Of a DNA stretch of 62,355 nt, positions 1-62,355 are shown piece after piece (the stretch's first letter is position 1; each line of letters opens with the position of its first letter). This DNA comes from a virus (lineage: Duplodnaviria; Caudoviricetes). The notes beneath the pieces were generated by a model, which made no database searches, had not been told where the DNA came from, and worked only from the letters and a program-made list of their open reading frames with translations. The stretch is from positions 1 through 62,355 of the IMG/VR virus record IMGVR_UViG_3300035156_000134, one strand, 5' to 3'. The translations under genes were made by a program, and so were the position numbers.

Positions 1-172
1 GCTCGTTGAAGAGCTTGCGGTGGAGCTTATCCATCCGCTTGATCAGCGCCTCAGCCTGTTTGGCTACAGGTCCCTTCCTGTGGTTCGCATCAGCGAAGCT
101 GTCACGGTCCTGGCACGCGTAGTGAAGCGCTAATGAGATGGTCTGTAGGTCGGACTTGGTGAGGTTGGTCAT
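1..172 (-). CDS. Hypothetical early protein, truncated by window edge (allele of 61389-61640)
   Basis: MTNLTKSDLQTISLALHYACQDRDSFADANHRKG matches 61389-61640; ATG overlaps stop of upstream gene. Confidence 0.75.
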   Translation of the reverse strand, partial: MTNLTKSDLQTISLALHYACQDRDSFADANHRKGPVAKQAEALIKRMDKLHRKLFNE

Positions 173-549
173 GAGTGATAGTCCTTATACTTCTCCCACT
201 GCGCAGCCTCGAGCACTTCTCGGGCGAGAGCTCGTGGATCATTATGGCCTGCAGCGATCTCCTCCAGAGCCTTGGCCAGATGGGTACCAGCGGAGCCGTA
301 GACCGACCGGAAGACGTCGTTGTTGAACCGTTTCTGGCCAGCCTCATTGCTGGCCTGCTCTCGGGCCGCCACCTTGACGGGATCATGAGTTCCACAGTAG
401 CCATTCTCCTTGGCCTTGTGGCTGCACTGCTTGTAGGTGGGCCAGCGGCCGAGGTAGGTCGTCACAGCGGCCTTGCAGCGGGTTGGATCAACAGCGCGCT
501 TGGCGTCCGTGGTGCCGCCGCTGCGTGGGTTGTAATCGTGGACAGGCAT
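169..549 (-). CDS. Hypothetical early protein with Cys/His zinc-finger-like motif
   Basis: Start MPVHDY follows CTGCTGAGGAG RBS; RCKA..QCSH..YCGTH motif; conserved in second copy 61637-62017. Confidence 0.8.
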   Translation of the reverse strand: MPVHDYNPRSGGTTDAKRAVDPTRCKAAVTTYLGRWPTYKQCSHKAKENGYCGTHDPVKVAAREQASNEAGQKRFNNDVFRSVYGSAGTHLAKALEEIAAGHNDPRALAREVLEAAQWEKYKDYHS

Positions 550-556
550 GTCAGTG

Positions 557-603
557 CTCCTCAGCAGATGAGACCTACATATACGCTCCAATGCCACTGT
601 ACA
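557..603 (-). promoter_or_regulatory. Phage promoter plus leader/RBS motif
   Basis: TGTACA (598-603)-N16-TATGTA, then CTGCTGAGGAG (557-567). Confidence 0.7.
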
Positions 604-727
604 CACTTAATTTCATTGATGCTCAAAAGATGGCCGCACCTGACTGAACAGGCACGGCCATAGGTTCCACGGAACTGTCGGGCTGCGGTAGACTTCCGTG
701 GTAAGCGAACTGTGTAGCCGGACAGGC

Positions 728-886
728 TCAGGTGTAGGTGGGCTTCCTGAGCGTCACGGGAGCACGGCCATAGTACTTCTTGATGAAGCGCTGGGCCTTC
801 GGCTCCGGCCCCTTGAACTGCTTGCGGCTGTTCAGGTAGACGGTGACGGTCTTGTCCTTGTTGTAGTTGCATTGCAGGTTAGGCAT
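728..886 (-). CDS. Small basic hypothetical protein (MPNLQCNYNK...)
   Basis: TGCTGAAAGGAG RBS at 894-905, TGTACA at 934-939; conserved in terminal repeat. Confidence 0.7.
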   Translation of the reverse strand: MPNLQCNYNKDKTVTVYLNSRKQFKGPEPKAQRFIKKYYGRAPVTLRKPTYT

Positions 887-3362: not shown

Positions 3363-3971
3363 TCAGACCATCTTGTTGCCGATGTCCATGTCGGCTTCAG
3401 GATCATCCCGATCATTGAGTTCACCGAGCACCTCCTGCATGGAGACGTCAAACGACTCGAGCAGCGTGTCCACCATCATGGCCAGCTTGTCGGCCACGTC
3501 CTTTCGGCTGCCGTTCTTGCCGGCCATCTTGGCGATCGCGTAGGTCATGATCACCGTGCCGATCAGACGCCGCCGCTCGATCTGCTGCATCGCCTCAGGG
3601 AACTCGTCGACATGTTCGACCGAGCCCTTGATCGACCGGGTGACTGTCTCGCCCCTGACGCCGCCACCTCCGACTCCCATGATCGGAGTCGAGTTGGCCT
3701 CGAACGCTTTGGTCAGCTCATCCTCAATGCCAACGAACTGAGGGATCGGCATAGTGATGTCCATCGGATCCAGACCGGCGTGACGCATAAAGATGTCGGC
3801 CATTTCATTGCAGGCGTCGGGCACGGCCAGACAGGCGAGCTGGGACATACCGGCATGGAGGATGGCGAGCTGGCCAACTGCACTTTGATGGGCGACCACG
3901 TCCATGCCCGTACGTAGGGTGAGCATCTGGATGAGCTCTTCGGTCGACGGAACTGCGTTCTCGGTTTGCAT
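3363..3971 (-). CDS. Hypothetical acidic protein
   Basis: 202 aa, CTGCTGAAGGA RBS at 3980-3990, hairpin downstream at ~3328-3355. Confidence 0.8.
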   Translation of the reverse strand: MQTENAVPSTEELIQMLTLRTGMDVVAHQSAVGQLAILHAGMSQLACLAVPDACNEMADIFMRHAGLDPMDITMPIPQFVGIEDELTKAFEANSTPIMGVGGGGVRGETVTRSIKGSVEHVDEFPEAMQQIERRRLIGTVIMTYAIAKMAGKNGSRKDVADKLAMMVDTLLESFDVSMQEVLGELNDRDDPEADMDIGNKMV

Positions 3972-4016
3972 ATTGTATATCCTTCAGCAGCCGCCACCAT
4001 GGCGGCAGGCCACACG

Positions 4017-4094: not shown

Positions 4095-4334
4095 ATGATC
4101 TTGATCACTGCCCCATCCAATGGCAACTACATCTGGGTCGTCAAAGACCCGGCTGATGCCCGAGCCATCGCACTCAAGACCGGGTTCCCAACCATCGAGC
4201 AGGCCAAGGATGACGGCCTCGGGTTCATCCTCATGTTGAAAGAAGAGCAGGACTCATGCAACCCAACCCATACAACTACGACGATGAGCCCATCGAAGAT
4301 GAGCCAGTCGCTTTCACAGCCCTCGGCTGCGTGA
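4095..4334 (+). CDS. Hypothetical protein
   Basis: CTGCTGAAGAGG RBS at 4076-4087. Confidence 0.55.
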   Translation: MILITAPSNGNYIWVVKDPADARAIALKTGFPTIEQAKDDGLGFILMLKEEQDSCNPTHTTTTMSPSKMSQSLSQPSAA

Positions 4335-4423
4335 TCGCCTTAGCCTCGGCGTTAACGGTGCTGACCTTGGTCGGCCTCGGCGTCCGCTGGCTGGTCCAGA
4401 CTGCTTGGTCGGCTGTGTCATGA
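4256..4423 (+). CDS. Small membrane protein (55 aa, below ORF-track cutoff)
   Basis: MQPNPYNYDD...hydrophobic stretch; stop overlaps next ATG. Confidence 0.45.
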   Translation: MQPNPYNYDDEPIEDEPVAFTALGCVIALASALTVLTLVGLGVRWLVQTAWSAVS

Positions 4424-4692
4424 TCCCTCGCGTGATCGCCGGGTTCACCCGAGCCTTAGCGAAGCCGAAGAACTGGGATGAGGCGAAGAACGGTCCGTGC
4501 CTCGGCCTCCCGATCCTGGACCACGTGGACGAGAACGGCGAGCCGAGCATGATCAGTGCTTGGCAGCCGACTGACGAAGAGATCATCCGCATTATGGAGG
4601 GTGCACCCGTGTATCTTCGTGTGCGTGGGACCATTCATCCGCCTGTCGGCATCTGGGCCGGCGACGCACCTGAGGACCAAGGCGGCGCGTAG
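4420..4692 (+). CDS. Conserved-type phage hypothetical protein
   Basis: PKNWD..GPC.GLPI..SAWQPT.EE..HPPV pattern. Confidence 0.7.
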   Translation: MIPRVIAGFTRALAKPKNWDEAKNGPCLGLPILDHVDENGEPSMISAWQPTDEEIIRIMEGAPVYLRVRGTIHPPVGIWAGDAPEDQGGA

Positions 4693-4708
4693 CGAGCCAA
4701 CGTTTTTA

Positions 4709-4737
4709 TGTACTAAGGTCCAAGCGGTTGCTACATA
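4709..4737 (+). promoter_or_regulatory. Promoter of candidate sRNA
   Basis: TGTACT-N17-TACATA with T-tract upstream; predicted +1 at ~4744-4745. Confidence 0.65.
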
Positions 4738-4743
4738 TTCCTC

Positions 4744-4831
4744 TGTCAGACCATGGTCGGGTCCTAGCGGACCGGACTCCCGCGTGCCTCGTCGCCGCCT
4801 ACTCTCCTTCAGCAGCGGCCATGGTCTGGCA
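4744..4831 (+). ncRNA. Candidate small RNA antisense to the shared phage leader/RBS motif
   Basis: 16-bp closing stem 4744-4759/4816-4831 with two G-U pairs valid only on + strand; inner hairpin 4760-4773; CTCCTTCAGCAG at 4804-4815; no credible ORF. Confidence 0.65.
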
Positions 4832-4836
4832 CTCCA

Positions 4837-4865
4837 TGTACATCGTCGAGACTTTGAGGTAGAGG
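4837..4865 (+). promoter_or_regulatory. Promoter of holin-like gene
   Basis: TGTACA-N17-TAGAGG. Confidence 0.55.
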
Positions 4866-4914
4866 CCGTGGCTGGCATGCCCTGCAGGGTCTAAGCCGAC
4901 AACGGGAGAACCTC

Positions 4915-5142
4915 ATGAAGAACATCATCGAGTTGCTCAAGGGCAAGAAGACCTACATCGTCGCGATCATCGCCGTCTTGGTGTCGCTGCTGGGCTATCT
5001 GGACGGCTCCATGTCGAGTGTGGAAGCCCTCTACGCGGTCCTGGCAGCTCTCGGCTTCACCAGCGTACGCGCCGGTTCGAAGACCGATGCGATCGCAGTG
5101 ATCGAGTCGAGGCCGACCAACAACTCCAACGCCGTTCCGTAA
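4915..5142 (+). CDS. Holin-like small membrane protein
   Basis: 75 aa, LKGKKTYIVA start, two hydrophobic helices. Confidence 0.6.
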   Translation: MKNIIELLKGKKTYIVAIIAVLVSLLGYLDGSMSSVEALYAVLAALGFTSVRAGSKTDAIAVIESRPTNNSNAVP

Positions 5143-5164
5143 GCGAGAGCTGTCGGGTTGCAGG

Positions 5165-5205
5165 GAAACCCTGGCTGACCAAGCGGTTGGCCAGGGTTTC
5201 TTTTT
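5165..5205 (+). terminator. Rho-independent terminator
   Basis: GAAACCCTGGCTGACC/GGTTGGCCAGGGTTTC stem plus TTTTT. Confidence 0.9.
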
Positions 5206-5264
5206 GCCTGTTTACAAGATGCTCGGAACTACGTTACCACCAAGCCCCTGCTGTAGGAGGTTTC

Positions 5265-5660
5265 ATGCTTAGACCGAACGATGTAATTGGCTGGTTCAAC
5301 CTCCGATCCCAGAAAGGGATGGGGGAAATGGCCCAGCTCACCGACGGGCTGCTAGTTGGTGGACAGATCGTGATTGGCGGGTCCGAGGCCAATATCAAGA
5401 AGGCCCACTCGTTTATGGCCGGCCGCGCCCGCATGGGCCGCATGGCTTCGATCAAGGACGCAGTGCTCGACCCGGACAAGCCGACCACGTTCGACACGCC
5501 GGCCATCGTCCAGCTGCTGCTGATCCAGGCCAACGAAACCTTCCACTCGACTGCTGACACGCTCCTCACGATGATCCAAGACATCACCGATGACGGCCAT
5601 GACGTGTCGGTTGCCCTCCAGCTCGCTCGCGAGCAGGTCAACGCCGTCCACAAGCTCTAA
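5265..5660 (+). CDS. Hypothetical protein
   Basis: TTTACA promoter at 5211 and CTGCTGTAGGAG RBS at 5248-5259. Confidence 0.7.
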   Translation: MLRPNDVIGWFNLRSQKGMGEMAQLTDGLLVGGQIVIGGSEANIKKAHSFMAGRARMGRMASIKDAVLDPDKPTTFDTPAIVQLLLIQANETFHSTADTLLTMIQDITDDGHDVSVALQLAREQVNAVHKL

Positions 5661-5669
5661 GGGTCAGAC

Positions 5670-5978
5670 ATGAAGAACCAGACACAGGCCGTCAAGGATG
5701 TGGTCGCCGAGCGCCTTCGCCAGCAGACCGAAGAGGGTCACACCATTGAGTCCGACGTGAAAGACAATCTGCCCGGCGAGATGGCGCTTGGCGCAGCTGC
5801 GATGGCAGCCCAGACCGGCACGATGATGGCCCGAGGCGAAGACGCAGTCCGCGGAGGAACTCCGTCGCTGTGGCCATGGCCGGCCGGATACAAGTGGCAT
5901 GACGAACGACGGAACCTCGTGATCGCCGCGGCCCTGATCCTGGCCGAGATCGAGCGTCTCGACGCCAGCAAGCAATAG
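5670..5978 (+). CDS. Conserved phage hypothetical protein
   Basis: DVVAERLRQ..EG..WPW..RRNLVIAAALILAEIERLD pattern common in phages. Confidence 0.8.
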   Translation: MKNQTQAVKDVVAERLRQQTEEGHTIESDVKDNLPGEMALGAAAMAAQTGTMMARGEDAVRGGTPSLWPWPAGYKWHDERRNLVIAAALILAEIERLDASKQ

Positions 5979-8120: not shown

Positions 8121-8197
8121 TGTACATGCGGGCTCACGGTGATACGCATGATCCTGCTGAAGGAGCGCCGACACGCTTAGTGCCCCTTCTGCTTTTT
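8121..8197 (+). promoter_or_regulatory. Promoter and leader with motif inside a terminator-like hairpin
   Basis: TGTACA 8121; CTGCTGAAGGAG 8154-8165 pairs imperfectly with GTGCCCCTTCTGC, followed by TTTTT. Confidence 0.5.
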
Positions 8198-8217
8198 GAA
8201 ACACGAAGGAGGCCACC

Positions 8218-10411: not shown

Positions 10412-10463
10412 TTTACAACATGGGGGAGCTGGGTTAGACCTGGTTCCCTCATCTGCTGAAGGA
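10412..10463 (+). promoter_or_regulatory. Phage promoter plus leader/RBS motif
   Basis: TTTACA-N17-TAGACC; CTGCTGAAGGA 10453-10463. Confidence 0.75.
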
Positions 10464-10472
10464 ATGTGAGAC

Positions 10473-18583: not shown

Positions 18584-18629
18584 TGTACAGCGTTGTGAGC
18601 TTTGGGTAGACAGGATCCAGCTGAAGGAG
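18584..18629 (+). promoter_or_regulatory. Phage promoter plus leader/RBS motif
   Basis: TGTACA-N17-TAGACA; CAGCTGAAGGAG 18618-18629. Confidence 0.8.
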
Positions 18630-20363: not shown

Positions 20364-20409
20364 TGTACAAAGGCTGGGCTGTGCGATAGCCTGGCCTCTG
20401 CTGAAGGAG
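20364..20409 (+). promoter_or_regulatory. Phage promoter plus leader/RBS motif
   Basis: TGTACA-N17-TAGCCT; CTGCTGAAGGAG 20398-20409. Confidence 0.8.
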
Positions 20410-22557: not shown

Positions 22558-22602
22558 TGTACAGCCGCGTGTGGGCATCGTAAGCCAGACCCGCTGAAGG
22601 AG
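22558..22602 (+). promoter_or_regulatory. Phage promoter plus leader/RBS motif
   Basis: TGTACA-N17-TAAGCC; CCGCTGAAGGAG 22591-22602. Confidence 0.8.
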
Positions 22603-57558: not shown

Positions 57559-57614
57559 CTCCTTCAGCTACGGGGTGGAGGCGTCTGAATATAGCCTGGG
57601 CCGTTTGATGTACA
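57559..57614 (-). promoter_or_regulatory. Phage promoter plus leader/RBS motif
   Basis: TGTACA-N17-TATTCA; GCTGAAGGAG 57559-57568. Confidence 0.75.
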
Positions 57615-58728: not shown

Positions 58729-58779
58729 CTCCTTCAGCATTGTGGCTCTGTTCATACTGTGGCGAGATGGCCCTGTACA
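58729..58779 (-). promoter_or_regulatory. Phage promoter plus leader/RBS motif
   Basis: TGTACA-N17-TATGAA; TGCTGAAGGAG 58729-58739. Confidence 0.8.
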
Positions 58780-61388: not shown

Positions 61389-61640
61389 TCACGTGTCGGT
61401 GCGTTGGATATCGAAGATGCTGATGGACGGCGTCAACCGGTCCTGCTCGCGGAGTTGGGTGAACATGGTGGGCTCGTTGAAGAGCTTGCGGTGGAGCTTA
61501 TCCATCCGCTTGATCAGCGCCTCAGCCTGTTTGGCTACAGGTCCCTTCCTGTGGTTCGCATCAGCGAAGCCGTCACGGTCCTGGCATGCGTAGTGCAGGG
61601 CTAGTGAAATGGTCTGAAGGTCGGACTTGGTGAAGGTCAT
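61389..61640 (-). CDS. Hypothetical early protein
   Basis: Coupled to upstream gene; conserved in copy at 1-172. Confidence 0.75.
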   Translation of the reverse strand: MTFTKSDLQTISLALHYACQDRDGFADANHRKGPVAKQAEALIKRMDKLHRKLFNEPTMFTQLREQDRLTPSISIFDIQRTDT

Positions 61641-62355
61641 GAGCGGTAGTCCTTATACTTCTCCCACTGCGCAGCCTCGAGCACTTCTCGGGCGAGAGCT
61701 CGTGGATCATTATGGCCTGCACCGATCTCCTCCAAGGCCTTGGCCATGCGGGCACCGGCCGAGCCGTAGACGGACTTGAAGACCTCGTTGTTGAACCGCT
61801 TCATGCCGGCCTCGTCGCTGGCCTGCTCACGGGCCGCCACCTTGACAGGGTCATGAGTCCCGCAGTAGCCGTTGGCCTTGGGCTTGTGGCTGCACTGCTT
61901 GTAGGTGGGCCAGCGGCCGAGGTAGGTCGTCACAGCTGCCTTGCAGCGGTTAGGGTCGACAGCGCGCTTGGCATCCGTGATGCCGCCGCTGCGTGGGCTG
62001 TAGTCGTGAACAGGCATGCCGTGTCTCCTCAGCAGATGAGACCTACCTAAGCCGCTCCAATGCATCTGTACACACTTAATTTCATTGATGCTCAAAAGAT
62101 GGCCGCACCTGACTGAACAGGCACGGCCATAGGTTCCACGGAACTGTCGGGCTGCGGTAGACCTCCGTGGTGTACGCGAAACTGGTAGCCGGACAAGCTC
62201 AGGTGTAGGTGGGCTTCCTGAGCGTCACAGGAGCACGGCCATAGTACTTCTTGATGAAGCGCTGGGCCTTCGGCTCCGGCCCCTTGAACTGCTTGCGGCT
62301 GTTCAGGTAGACGGTGACGGTCTTGTCCTTGTTGTAGTTGCATTGCAGGTTAGGC
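61472..62355. repeat. Terminal direct repeat, copy 2
   Basis: Diverged copy of 1-884. Confidence 0.95.
61637..62017 (-). CDS. Zinc-finger-like early protein (allele of 169-549)
   Basis: Same protein with conservative changes; TGTACA(62067)-N17-TAGGTA and CTGCTGAGGAG 62025-62035. Confidence 0.8.
   Translation of the reverse strand: MPVHDYSPRSGGITDAKRAVDPNRCKAAVTTYLGRWPTYKQCSHKPKANGYCGTHDPVKVAAREQASDEAGMKRFNNEVFKSVYGSAGARMAKALEEIGAGHNDPRALAREVLEAAQWEKYKDYRS

What the first reader, a model, noticed from the sequence alone, without database searches (positions are those of the whole stretch)
4709..4831. Candidate master-regulator sRNA displaying the exact antisense of a leader motif shared by ~17 phage mRNAs
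Seen: an ORF-free gap holds a promoter of this phage's type (TGTACT 4709-N17-TACATA). Its predicted start (~4744) coincides with the first base of a 16-bp stem (TGTCAGACCATGGTCG 4744-4759 / CGGCCATGGTCTGGCA 4816-4831). Two pairs are G-U, valid only for the + strand RNA. Inside are a small hairpin (4760-4773) and, next to the stem, (ACT)CTCCTTCAGCAG (4804-4815). This is the perfect reverse complement of CTGCTGAAGGAG, the extended Shine-Dalgarno motif in front of most promoter-proximal non-structural genes. On the - strand this copy is not followed by a start codon at RBS distance, so it is not an RBS. Inference: one trans-acting ~90-nt RNA pairs with the RBS of a whole regulon (early genes, replication and DNA-modification operons). 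It could shut down or time their translation, while virion genes lack the motif and would escape. I do not recognise a described phage system of this design.
Basis: partly seen in the sequence, partly recalled or inferred. Interest (0 to 1): 0.92.

Follow-up and report, generated by a model that had tools for sequence, protein, structure and literature searches.

The report
Phage RNA with anti-ribosome-site seed
A conserved, folded phage RNA displays a short single-stranded stretch that is the exact complement of the extended ribosome-binding motif in front of many of the phage's own genes, and the two change together in related phages, which points to an undescribed RNA switch for phage protein synthesis.

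Summary
The promoter (4709-4737), the 16-bp stem (4744-4759/4816-4831, two G-U pairs valid only on the + strand), the inner hairpin and CTCCTTCAGCAG (4804-4815) are all there.

Comparative data support most of the interpretation:
- Five other distinct phages (primase 65-76% identical) carry the element in the same place. All 121 pair cells stay paired, 12 of 21 pairs show compensatory changes, and there are 19 G-U and 0 A-C cells.
- The block TCTCCTTCAGCAGCGG is invariant, and the seed is accessible.
- More distant relatives, including cultured Stenotrophomonas phage AXL3, carry an analogous element with a different seed (CCTCAGCAAG). Their gene starts carry GCTGAGG instead of GCTGAAGG, so seed and target co-vary.

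The element is absent from Rfam, and my three paper searches on phage-encoded small RNAs found no description.

A discrete ~90-nt sRNA is not supported. There is no terminator, and in relatives the element is the 5' leader of the next gene, often the primase gene. No expression data exist, and the direction of regulation is inferred.

Best reading (0.6): a leader-borne, base-pairing RNA that blocks the ribosome sites of a phage regulon.

The parts
4709..4737 (+). Promoter P1: TGTACT-N17-TACATA with TGC just before the -10 (extended -10-like). It ends 6 nt before the first stem base.
   Evidence: Sequence. The exact pattern is unique in the window. The family TGTAC-N18-TAV occurs 14 times vs 0.87 expected. 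A promoter-like pair lies 6-9 nt before the stem in all six close relatives and TAnAAT about 7 nt before the stem in 41 distant ones. Predicted, not mapped.
4744..4759 (+). 5' arm of the closing stem (16 bp)
   Evidence: Covariation: helix 1 has 16 pairs, 9 of them with changes on both sides, and 100% of cells are paired.
4760..4773 (+). Inner hairpin A (GGUCC-UAGC-GGACC), stacked on the closing stem
   Evidence: Helix 2: 5 pairs, 3 with changes on both sides.
4774..4802 (+). Variable, C-rich, weakly structured linker
   Evidence: mean majority fraction 0.48 in unpaired columns outside the seed.
4803..4815 (+). Seed: U-CUCCUUCAGCAG, single-stranded. It is the exact complement of the leader motif CUGCUGAAGGAG. 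The block 4803-4818 is invariant in all six close relatives.
   Evidence: Mean P(unpaired) is 0.79. Opening energy is 0.87 kcal/mol against a duplex energy of -20.9.
4816..4831 (+). 3' arm of the closing stem. It starts with the invariant CGG.
4832..4836 (+). C-rich tail after the stem (CUCCA). Relatives have CACC(C/U)-type tails. There is no U-tract.
4837..4865 (+). Second promoter P2 (TGTACA-N17-TAGAGG) for the next gene. Present in W, G001 and L135/L136; absent in G002, L130 and L131.
4915..5142 (+). Small gene (75 aa, hydrophobic core) downstream of the element. It is homologous to the gene that follows the element in the close relatives.
   Evidence: The only family hit is a sub-threshold DUF7439 match.
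5165..5205 (+). Canonical intrinsic terminator (11-bp stem followed by TTTTT) that closes the unit P1-element-(P2)-small gene
   Evidence: Read. It shows that U-tract terminators are used here, unlike the element.
20398..20409 (+). Exact target motif CTGCTGAAGGAG, 6 nt before ATG 20416 (339-aa protein). Example of a predicted target ribosome site.
18618..18629 (+). Target motif (CAGCTGAAGGAG) before ATG 18638
22591..22602 (+). Target motif (CCGCTGAAGGAG) before ATG 22608
10453..10464 (+). Target motif (CTGCTGAAGGAA) before ATG 10473. The motif is kept before the orthologous gene in all four close genomes while the flanking leader differs.
5248..5259 (+). Target motif (CTGCTGTAGGAG) before ATG 5265, the first gene of the operon that now holds the primase gene
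3979..3990 (-). Target motif (CTGCTGAAGGAT) before ATG 3971, the first leftward gene
58729..58740 (-). Target motif (ATGCTGAAGGAG) before ATG 58722
57559..57570 (-). Target motif (TAGCTGAAGGAG) before ATG 57550 (659 aa), the first gene of the leftward late block
8154..8165 (+). Exact motif copy that is not a ribosome site. It forms the 5' arm of a terminator-like hairpin (8156-8192, then UUUUU). The real SD and ATG 8218 lie further on.
   Evidence: -14.5 kcal/mol, z -2.1.

Best explanation
The region 4744-4831 encodes a conserved structured RNA made at the very 5' end of a host-type (sigma-70-like) transcript.

Structure. A long closing stem and a small inner hairpin hold open a multiloop. In that loop the 12-13-nt seed (U)CUCCUUCAGCAG lies single-stranded, directly before the 3' arm.

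Proposed action. The seed is an anti-Shine-Dalgarno sequence (CUCCUU) extended by CAGCAG. It base-pairs with the extended ribosome-binding motif (CU)GCUGAAGGAG, which lies 5-8 nt before the start codons of a set of the phage's own genes. These are mostly first genes of early and replication-module operons. Pairing over 10-12 nt covers the SD and should keep 30S subunits off, repressing or timing translation of the set. This would be an RNA counterpart of what the T4 RegA protein does.

Form of the RNA. It is probably not a terminated ~90-nt sRNA. It is the leader of the downstream mRNA. Ancestrally this was the primase leader; in this phage three genes now lie between the element and the primase gene. 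It acts either as part of that mRNA or after processing.

Shown: the structure, the strand, seed invariance and accessibility, motif enrichment at gene starts, and seed/motif co-variation across clades.

Inferred: the transcription start, pairing in vivo, action in trans, and repression.
For: **1. Structure under selection on the + strand.** Model R1 finds the element in 7 loci, 6 of them distinct. All 121 of 121 pair cells are standard pairs. 12 of 21 pairs have changes on both sides, and 0 of 500 shuffles reach this. Slid controls give 25-47% paired. By my tally of the pair types there are 19 G-U cells and 0 A-C cells. The + strand fold is more stable than the - strand fold in all 6.

**2. 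Seed conservation.** TCTCCTTCAGCAGCGG is identical in all 6, while other unpaired columns average a majority fraction of 0.48. No reading frame is conserved across the element.

**3. Accessibility.** Mean P(unpaired) is 0.60-0.83. Opening the seed costs 0.9-2.7 kcal/mol. The duplex energy is -16.7 (10-mer) or -20.9 (12-mer).

**4. The target motif is real and tied to the ribosome site.**
- 9 matches against 0.47 expected.
- GCTGA is enriched directly 5' of AGGAG at gene starts in W, G001, G002 and G004.
- The distance to the start codon is fixed at 5-8 nt, while the distance to the promoter varies.
- Orthologous genes keep the motif while the rest of the leader diverges. This holds in 8 orthologue clusters, one spanning all four genomes.

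**5. Co-variation.**
- 41 distinct distant relatives carry an analogous element: a promoter -10, an 11-bp stem with 10 of 11 pairs compensated, a seed just before the 3' arm, and a CACCU tail. Their seed is CCUCAGCAAG.
- At strict gene starts, type-A genomes have GCTGAAGG 33 times and GCTGAGG 6 times. Non-A genomes have 3 and 32.
- With at least 10 contiguous pairs, A seeds hit 8, 6, 7 and 11 starts in A genomes and 0-1 in B genomes. B seeds hit 2-3 starts in B genomes and 0 in all 12 A cells.
- Keeping the anti-SD core and randomising the extension reaches the observed count in 1-33 of 2000 trials for 8 of 9 genomes.

**6. Independent annotation.** In cultured phage AXL3 the seed region pairs over at least 9 nt with 8 of 65 annotated gene starts (gp34 13 nt; gp57 and gp65 12 nt). 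All 8 lie in the gp27-gp65 non-structural module. The type-A seed reaches at most 8 nt.

**7. Position of the promoter.** The promoter -10 lies 6-9 nt before the first stem base in all six close relatives and about 7 nt before it in the distant ones.
Against: - No transcript data of any kind exist, so the start, the end and the abundance are unknown.
- No terminator follows the stem. In G002, L130 and L131 the next gene's SD follows within about 25 nt, so a separate sRNA is not indicated.
- In the distant clade the same leader holds two hairpins whose loops (GCUGAG, GCUGAGG) are complementary to the seed. The seed may therefore have a partner in cis, and a purely cis function is possible.
- In G002, L130 and L131 part of the seed (CCUUC) can pair with an adjacent GGAAGG.
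- Co-variation is imperfect. In G007 and G008 the commonest leader motif (CCUGCUGAGGA) pairs over only 8-9 nt with the phage's own seed. The 43%-complete G009 shows no match of 10 nt or more.
- The A versus non-A contrast is essentially one evolutionary switch, so the Fisher value overstates independence.
- Any strong SD pairs with CUCCUU, so part of the complementarity is generic.
- Model R2, built from the distant clade, hits type-A L135 only weakly (E 0.0014) and L130 at E 0.31, and does not hit the window. Homology between the two clades rests mainly on shared architecture and position.
Confidence: 0.6

Rival explanations
1. Cis-acting leader element. The structured RNA controls only the gene(s) on its own transcript: primase in most relatives, the small membrane-protein gene here. 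The seed would pair with complementary sequences in the same leader (hairpin loops, or the gene's own SD) to set translation or stability. The match to other genes' ribosome sites would be a by-product of all these sites sharing one SD-like motif.
For: - The element directly precedes a gene, with no terminator, in G002, L130 and L131 and in the primase leaders of the distant clade and AXL3.
- Two downstream hairpins in those leaders display GCUGAG or GCUGAGG in their loops. Hairpin 1 has 6 of 6 pairs compensated in 28 sequences.
- A local GGAAGG can pair with the seed in three relatives.
Against: - In the window, G001 and L135/L136 a separate promoter (P2) lies between the element and the gene, and no complementary hairpin loops follow.
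- The downstream genes' own SDs match only the generic CUCCU part and not CAGCAG, yet CAGCAG is invariant.
- The extension beyond the SD is shared with 6-11 other gene starts per genome and switches with them between clades.
Confidence: 0.2
2. RNA processing or stability element. The long stem would be a 5' stabiliser, an RNase III-type processing site or an unusual terminator between transcription units. The seed's complementarity would have no pairing function.
For: - A 16-17-bp perfect stem lies at the predicted 5' end of the transcript.
- It lies between two genes.
- In the distant clade the stem is followed by ACC and a run of 3-5 U.
Against: - The window's stem has no U-tract, whereas a canonical terminator with a U-tract is used 330 nt downstream.
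- A stabiliser or cleavage site does not explain an invariant 16-nt single-stranded block among otherwise diverged loops.
- It also does not explain the change of that block in step with the leader motif.
Confidence: 0.08
3. DNA-level site. CTGCTGAAGGAG would be the double-stranded binding site of a phage or host DNA-binding protein (an operator or roadblock just downstream of promoters). The copy at 4804-4815 would simply be one site in inverted orientation.
For: - In the window the motif begins about 7-8 nt after the -10 of four TGTACA promoters, where an operator could sit.
- A protein whose specificity changes could also produce clade-wise co-variation.
Against: - In G002 and G004 the motif lies 12-38 nt from the -10 but always 5-8 nt from the start codon.
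- All copies at genes are co-oriented with the gene.
- The single inverted copy is always embedded, unpaired, at the same place in a stem-loop whose covariation tolerates G-U but never A-C. That asymmetry is an RNA signature, not a DNA one.
Confidence: 0.05

Closest known systems
c4 antisense RNA of phages P1 and P7 (Rfam family C4)
   Same: Both are phage-encoded folded RNAs made from the leader of an operon. In both, short complementary sequences are exposed in loops and pair around a ribosome-binding site to block translation. This is taken from passages of the review PMC12197685 read; the processing by RNase P is recalled, not read.
   Different: - c4 targets one site (ant) on its own operon's mRNA and serves immunity of a temperate phage. 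Here the complement is a motif shared by many gene starts across the genome.
- No sequence or structure homology: nothing in Rfam at E <= 10 over 4650-4920 or over a distant-clade leader, and no hit at gathering score over the window or four distant-clade loci.
- Processing is unknown here.
Staphylococcus aureus RNAIII and RsaE/RoxS-type sRNAs
   Same: C/U-rich unpaired seeds pair with the Shine-Dalgarno regions of several mRNAs. RNAIII is also an mRNA for a small membrane-active peptide, as this RNA may be the leader of a small membrane-protein mRNA.
   Different: - Those are cellular regulators with generic UCCC or CCCC seeds.
- Here the seed is extended by 6 nt to match a phage-specific motif.
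- The regulator and its targets lie on one phage genome.
T4 RegA translational repressor (recalled; the review PMC3014915 was seen only in the search listing)
   Same: The proposed job is the same: one phage factor shuts down translation of a set of early mRNAs by occupying their initiation regions.
   Different: RegA is a protein. Here the factor would be an RNA acting by base-pairing.
5'UTR-derived non-coding RNA candidates of virulent Pseudomonas phages (ONT-cappable-seq study PMC10914365; passages read)
   Same: Short RNAs arising from the 5' leaders of phage mRNAs. That study reports 29 candidates in six phages.
   Different: In the passages I read, those candidates have no assigned targets, seeds or conserved structures. 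No sequence relation was tested.

Membership tests
Rfam C4 antisense RNA (P1/P7 c4) | Match to the family covariance model | tested here: not met
   No Rfam family matches at gathering score in the window or at E <= 10 in 4650-4920. The same holds for distant-clade leaders.
Rfam C4 antisense RNA (P1/P7 c4) | Loop-exposed sequences complementary to a ribosome-binding region | tested here: met
   The seed is unpaired and complementary to SD-containing motifs. This is a resemblance of mechanism, not membership.
Rfam C4 antisense RNA (P1/P7 c4) | Excised from the operon leader by RNase P | not testable with these tools
   No RNA data. The stem is followed by a C-rich tail (CUCCA, CCCA, CACCC), but this was not tested.
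Trans-encoded base-pairing sRNA (Hfq-type) | Own promoter | tested here: inconclusive
   A promoter of the phage's type lies 6 nt before the stem and is conserved in position in relatives. It is predicted only.
Trans-encoded base-pairing sRNA (Hfq-type) | Rho-independent terminator that defines a short RNA | tested here: not met
   No U-tract follows the stem in the window or its five close relatives. The distant clade has ACC plus 3-5 U after the stem, which is atypical.
Trans-encoded base-pairing sRNA (Hfq-type) | Conserved accessible seed complementary to several mRNAs at their ribosome sites | tested here: met
Trans-encoded base-pairing sRNA (Hfq-type) | Chaperone dependence and a demonstrated effect in trans | not testable with these tools
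   Needs experiments.
Intrinsic terminator | G+C-rich hairpin with a short loop, immediately followed by a U-tract | tested here: not met
   The closing stem encloses 56 nt and is followed by CUCCAUGUAC. The consensus scan calls nothing there.
Cis-regulatory 5' leader (riboswitch or translational operator type) | Lies in the 5' UTR directly before the regulated gene | tested here: inconclusive
   Met in G002, L130, L131 and in the primase leaders of the distant clade. In the window a second promoter intervenes.
Cis-regulatory 5' leader (riboswitch or translational operator type) | Alternative pairing with the gene's own ribosome site | tested here: inconclusive
   Only 4-7 nt of generic SD complementarity to the downstream gene, by inspection. 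Complementary hairpin loops occur in distant-clade leaders.

The most novel reading that the evidence does not exclude
A whole lineage of tailed phages marks a regulon of its own mRNAs with a private extension of the Shine-Dalgarno sequence. The lineage includes cultured Stenotrophomonas phage AXL3 and Pseudoxanthomonas phage PW916. Each phage would encode, at the 5' end of its replication-module transcript, one folded RNA whose seed reads that mark. Seed and mark co-evolve (CUCCUUCAGCAG with CUGCUGAAGGAG; CCUCAGCAAG with CUUGCUGAGG). The RNA would be a phage-borne global translational switch, an RNA analogue of T4 RegA. Target-mimic hairpins in the primase leader may tune it. At the leader at 8154 it may open a terminator hairpin rather than block a ribosome site.
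Probability: 0.4. Interest if true: 0.88.

Novelty: new variant of a known kind. Interest (0 to 1): 0.8.

Why it matters
Post-transcriptional control in lytic phages is known mainly from proteins (T4 RegA, for example) and from single-target antisense RNAs of temperate phages.

A conserved RNA that reads a phage-specific extension of the ribosome-binding site across a set of genes would be a new way for a phage to time its programme. It would also give a natural example of a co-evolving seed and 'zip code' pair.

This is directly testable, because members of the family occur in cultured phages (AXL3, PW916) with laboratory hosts. The family is absent from Rfam, and the gap is unannotated in the AXL3 record and carries no listed feature in the sparsely annotated PW916 record.

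Tried and rejected
- **Nucleotide search of cultured phages.** blastn of 4300-5300 found no match.
- **Short seed patterns.** The 14-mer and 16-mer seed scans of viral contigs gave mostly chance hits inside coding regions. The complement encodes Leu-Leu-Lys-Glu, which is common in G+C-rich genomes. Only the known relatives and L111 were real.
- **Scan of bacterial genomes.** All 120 loci fetched scored 34 bits or less with R1, against 53-99 bits for true members. No prophage copy was found among those examined.
- **R1 on distant primase relatives.** R1 found nothing credible in 76 loci, because the model leans on the type-A seed. From R1 alone I first concluded that the complete relative G003 lacks the element. 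That was wrong: model R2 and the sequence itself show an element directly before its primase gene.
- **Short words as a statistic.** Counts of 7-8-mers with a loose start-codon criterion were too noisy to use. I replaced them with a first-start criterion.
- **Energy ranking.** RNAcofold-based interaction energies put motif-bearing leaders near the top. They are unreliable here because pairing inside a multiloop is forbidden in that model, and the very top rows (27838, 27840) are probably internal sites. I do not rely on them.
- **Coding explanation.** Rejected: no frame is conserved across the element, and its lengths (75-98 nt) differ by non-multiples of three.
- **Simple consensus scan.** The promoter/terminator scan does not call P1, P2 or the terminator at 5165-5205, so it is uninformative.
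- **Public sequencing runs.** No RNA holder is listed. Three DNA runs of biocrust metagenomes were listed, one of which may be the source.
- **Family scans of predicted target proteins.** PHROGs and Pfam scans gave almost no functions.
- **Papers.**
  - Three searches on phage-encoded small RNAs and c4 and one on AXL3 returned no description of this design in their listings.
  - I read passages of PMC12197685 and PMC10914365.
  - A term search of the AXL3 paper PMC7504290 gave 0 occurrences of promoter, intergenic, terminator and non-coding.
  - Supplementary files were not opened and could hold transcript maps.
  - The PW916 paper (PMC9414467) was seen only in a search listing.
Full report
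**Observation**

- TGTACT (4709)-N17-TACATA (to 4737), with TGC in front of the -10.
- A 16-bp inverted repeat, 4744-4759 with 4816-4831. Its two mismatches are T:G, so they pair only in + strand RNA.
- A 5-bp hairpin, 4760-4773.
- CTCCTTCAGCAG at 4804-4815.

The + strand folds to -43.7 kcal/mol (z -4.0; 0 of 200 shuffles as stable). The - strand folds to -41.6 (z -2.8).

The leader motif CTGCTGAAGGAG is a real family. It has 9 matches at up to 1 mismatch against 0.47 expected. The minus-strand copy inside the hairpin is not followed by a start codon, here or in two relatives.

The promoter type is also real. TGTAC-N18-TA(A/C/G) occurs 14 times against 0.87 expected. The site at 4709 is a slightly deviant member.

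**Setting**

The window is a complete virus record of 62,355 bp. Its first 40 bases recur at 61,472, so it probably has a terminal repeat of about 884 bp. It encodes a primase, a DNA polymerase, a helicase and a portal protein.

The element lies in the gap between a 90-aa gene (4420-4692) and a 75-aa hydrophobic protein gene (4915-5142). After the stem comes a second promoter (TGTACA 4837-N17-TAGAGG). After the small gene comes a canonical terminator with a U-tract (5165-5205), read. The stem itself has no U-tract.

**Close relatives**

Searches with the primase protein and with seed patterns found five further distinct phages. Their primases are 65-76% identical to the window's. All carry the element at the same place, about 1.0-1.2 kb upstream of the primase gene. 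They are G001, G002, L130 (G004), L131 and L135/L136.

In each, a promoter-like pair ends 6-9 nt before the first stem base. The stem sequence differs from phage to phage. TCTCCTTCAGCAGCGG is identical in all.

A covariance model (R1) recovers all seven loci at 53-99 bits. On the model-fitted alignment:
- 121 of 121 pair cells are standard pairs.
- 12 of 21 pairs show changes on both sides.
- 0 of 500 shuffles reach these values.
- Sliding the partners gives 25-47% paired.

The alignment is fitted to the model, which favours the structure. The same pairs are visible by eye.

From the pair types I count 19 G-U cells and no A-C cell. This points to RNA read from the + strand and not to a DNA palindrome. 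The + strand fold is more stable than the - strand fold in all six.

Unpaired columns outside the seed have a mean majority fraction of 0.48, against 0.99 for the seed block. No reading frame is conserved over the element.

The seed is accessible. Mean P(unpaired) is 0.60-0.83. Opening it costs 0.9-2.7 kcal/mol, against -16.7 to -20.9 kcal/mol for the 10- and 12-nt duplexes.

**The target motif**

The motif is tied to ribosome sites and not to promoters. In the window it starts about 7-8 nt after the -10 of several promoters. In G002 it lies roughly 12-38 nt from the -10, by my reading of the leaders printed. It is always 5-8 nt before the start codon.

GCTGA is enriched directly 5' of AGGAG at gene starts in the four close genomes.

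Orthologous genes keep the motif while the rest of their leaders has diverged. This holds in eight orthologue clusters among 59 motif-bearing starts, and one cluster spans all four genomes.

The core is the 10-mer GCUGAAGGAG; the first two positions vary. Most predicted target proteins have no assigned function.

The structural genes mostly lack the motif, but the first gene of the leftward late block (start 57550) has it.

**The wider family and co-variation**

A more degenerate primase search returned 79 loci. R1 found no credible match in 76 of these loci. The 69 with primases 38-56% identical hold only 5 copies of GCTGAAGGAG in 604 kb.

However, 51 of these 69 have CCTCAGC within 450 nt upstream of the primase gene. 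The 41 distinct sequences align into an analogous element:
- A TAnAAT -10 about 7 nt before a stem.
- An 11-bp stem in which 10 of 11 pairs show compensatory changes.
- An invariant CCTCAGCAAG a few bases before the 3' arm.
- An ACACCTTT tail.

A second model (R2) finds four more copies further upstream of the primase gene (L383, L407, L365, L376). It also finds one in the complete relative G003, which I had wrongly scored as lacking the element. R2 was run on 15 of the 18 loci that lack the word.

R2 hits the type-A element of L135 at the correct place (23.8 bits, E 0.0014) and L130 weakly (E 0.31). It does not hit the window. Homology of the two types is therefore likely but rests mainly on shared architecture and position.

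In these phages the repeated leader words are CTTGCTGAGGAG, CCTGCTGAGGA and similar. These are the complements of their own seeds.

Counted at SD-bearing gene starts that are the first start of their ORF:
- Type-A genomes have GCTGAAGG 33 times and GCTGAGG 6 times. Non-A genomes have 3 and 32. The Fisher value of 1e-11 is not corrected for relatedness, and the contrast is essentially one switch.
- With at least 10 contiguous Watson-Crick pairs, type-A seeds match 8, 6, 7 and 11 starts in the four A genomes and 0-1 in three B genomes.
- B seeds match 2-3 starts in B genomes and none in all 12 A cells.
- Keeping the anti-SD core and randomising the extension reaches the observed count in 3, 8, 33 and 15 of 2000 trials (A genomes), 1, 1 and 1 (B genomes) and 31 (G007). 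G009, which is 43% complete, has no match.

The fit is not perfect. In G007 and G008 the commonest leader word pairs over only 8-9 nt with the phage's own seed.

**Cultured members**

A tblastn search with the primase found Stenotrophomonas phage AXL3 and Pseudoxanthomonas phage PW916, both 49% identical. R2 finds the element just before their primase genes (E 1e-8 and 1.2e-7; sequence). The AXL3 record annotates nothing in that gap, and the PW916 stretch, which lists only two features, shows none there.

Using the 65 annotated AXL3 gene starts, the seed region pairs over at least 9 nt with 8 of them (gp34 13 nt; gp57 and gp65 12; gp27 10; gp45, gp37 and gp30 9; gp46 9). All 8 lie in the gp27-gp65 non-structural module. 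The type-A seed reaches at most 8 nt.

A term search of the AXL3 paper gave no occurrence of promoter, intergenic, terminator or non-coding.

**What it most likely is**

The most likely reading is a leader-borne base-pairing RNA. The stems exist to present an anti-Shine-Dalgarno seed that is extended by 4-6 nt to match a phage-specific extension of the ribosome site. Pairing would cover the SD of a set of mostly promoter-proximal, non-structural genes.

The simplest outcome is translational repression or timing. This is inference.

Nothing defines a 3' end near 4831. In three close relatives, and in the whole distant clade, the element runs straight into the leader of the next gene, usually the primase gene. 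The RNA is then an mRNA leader that acts as such or after processing.

In the window, three genes (4915-5142, 5265-5660, 5670-5978) now separate the element from the primase gene.

**The main rival**

The main rival is a purely cis role. Distant-clade primase leaders carry two hairpins that display GCUGAG and GCUGAGG in their loops. Hairpin 1 has 6 of 6 pairs compensated in 28 sequences. The seed therefore has partners on its own transcript.

Against a purely cis role in the window: P2 intervenes and no such hairpins follow the element. The invariant CAGCAG has no partner in the downstream gene's ribosome site, but it does in 6-11 other gene starts per genome.

**Other rivals**

A DNA-operator reading is disfavoured by three things: the fixed distance to start codons, the co-orientation of the copies with their genes, and the G-U-only asymmetry of the stem.

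A plain stability or processing hairpin does not explain the invariant, co-varying seed.

**Comparison with known systems**

The closest described design is the c4 antisense RNA of P1 and P7. It is a folded RNA from an operon leader, with loop sequences that pair around a ribosome site (passages of PMC12197685). This element is not a member of that family: no Rfam family matches, even at E <= 10.

In seed logic it resembles staphylococcal RNAIII and RsaE. In its proposed job it resembles the T4 RegA protein. Both comparisons are recalled, not read.

5'UTR-derived RNA candidates are reported for virulent Pseudomonas phages, without targets in the passages I read (PMC10914365).

My three paper searches on phage small RNAs listed no phage RNA that reads a shared extended SD motif. 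Supplements were not opened.

**Verdict**

The element defines a new RNA family, a new variant of the base-pairing regulator kind, with cultured members in which it can be tested.

Noticed in passing
window 8152-8205 (+): The exact motif copy at 8154-8165 is not a ribosome site. With CCCCUUCUGC it forms a hairpin followed by UUUUU (-14.5 kcal/mol, z -2.1). The real SD (GAAGGAGG) and ATG 8218 follow. This is possibly an attenuator that pairing with the seed would open.
   Followed up: partly
window 1-884 and 61472-62355: The first 40 bases recur at 61472, and the context of TGTACA at 598 equals that at 62067. This is consistent with a direct terminal repeat of about 884 bp, although the record is classed as linear without end repeats.
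   Followed up: partly
window 598, 3295, 58774, 59255, 59384, 62067 (- strand promoters); L002 1747, 9960, 11022, 12028: TGTACA promoters often carry an A/T-rich upstream block (GAAAATAGTTn-TGTACA in G002; ATGAAAnTAnGTG-TGTACA in the window's leftward early region). TGTACA occurs 27 times against about 8 expected.
   Followed up: partly
L367 3926-4010; L355 904-1000; L444 860-968 (primase leaders of distant relatives): Two conserved hairpins lie between the element and the primase start. They display GCUGAG and GCUGAGG in their loops, complementary to the seed. They may be target mimics or partners for loop-loop pairing.
   Followed up: partly
A7 alignment, inside the distant-clade element (e.g. 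L367 about 3853-3868): A second conserved C/U-rich block, GUGUCUCCUUCGG, lies inside the distant-clade element. The type-A seed GUCUCCUUCAGCAG looks like a fusion of this block with CAGCA(A)G.
   Followed up: no
L383, L407, L365, L376 (element 550-650 nt upstream of the primase gene): In some relatives an extra gene lies between the element and the primase gene, as three genes do in the window. The leader appears to be a hotspot for gene insertion.
   Followed up: no
window 4747-4756 and 4819-4828: Each stem arm contains a near-palindrome around CCATGG (GACCATGGTC; GGCCATGGTC). It is not conserved in relatives, so probably incidental.
   Followed up: yes
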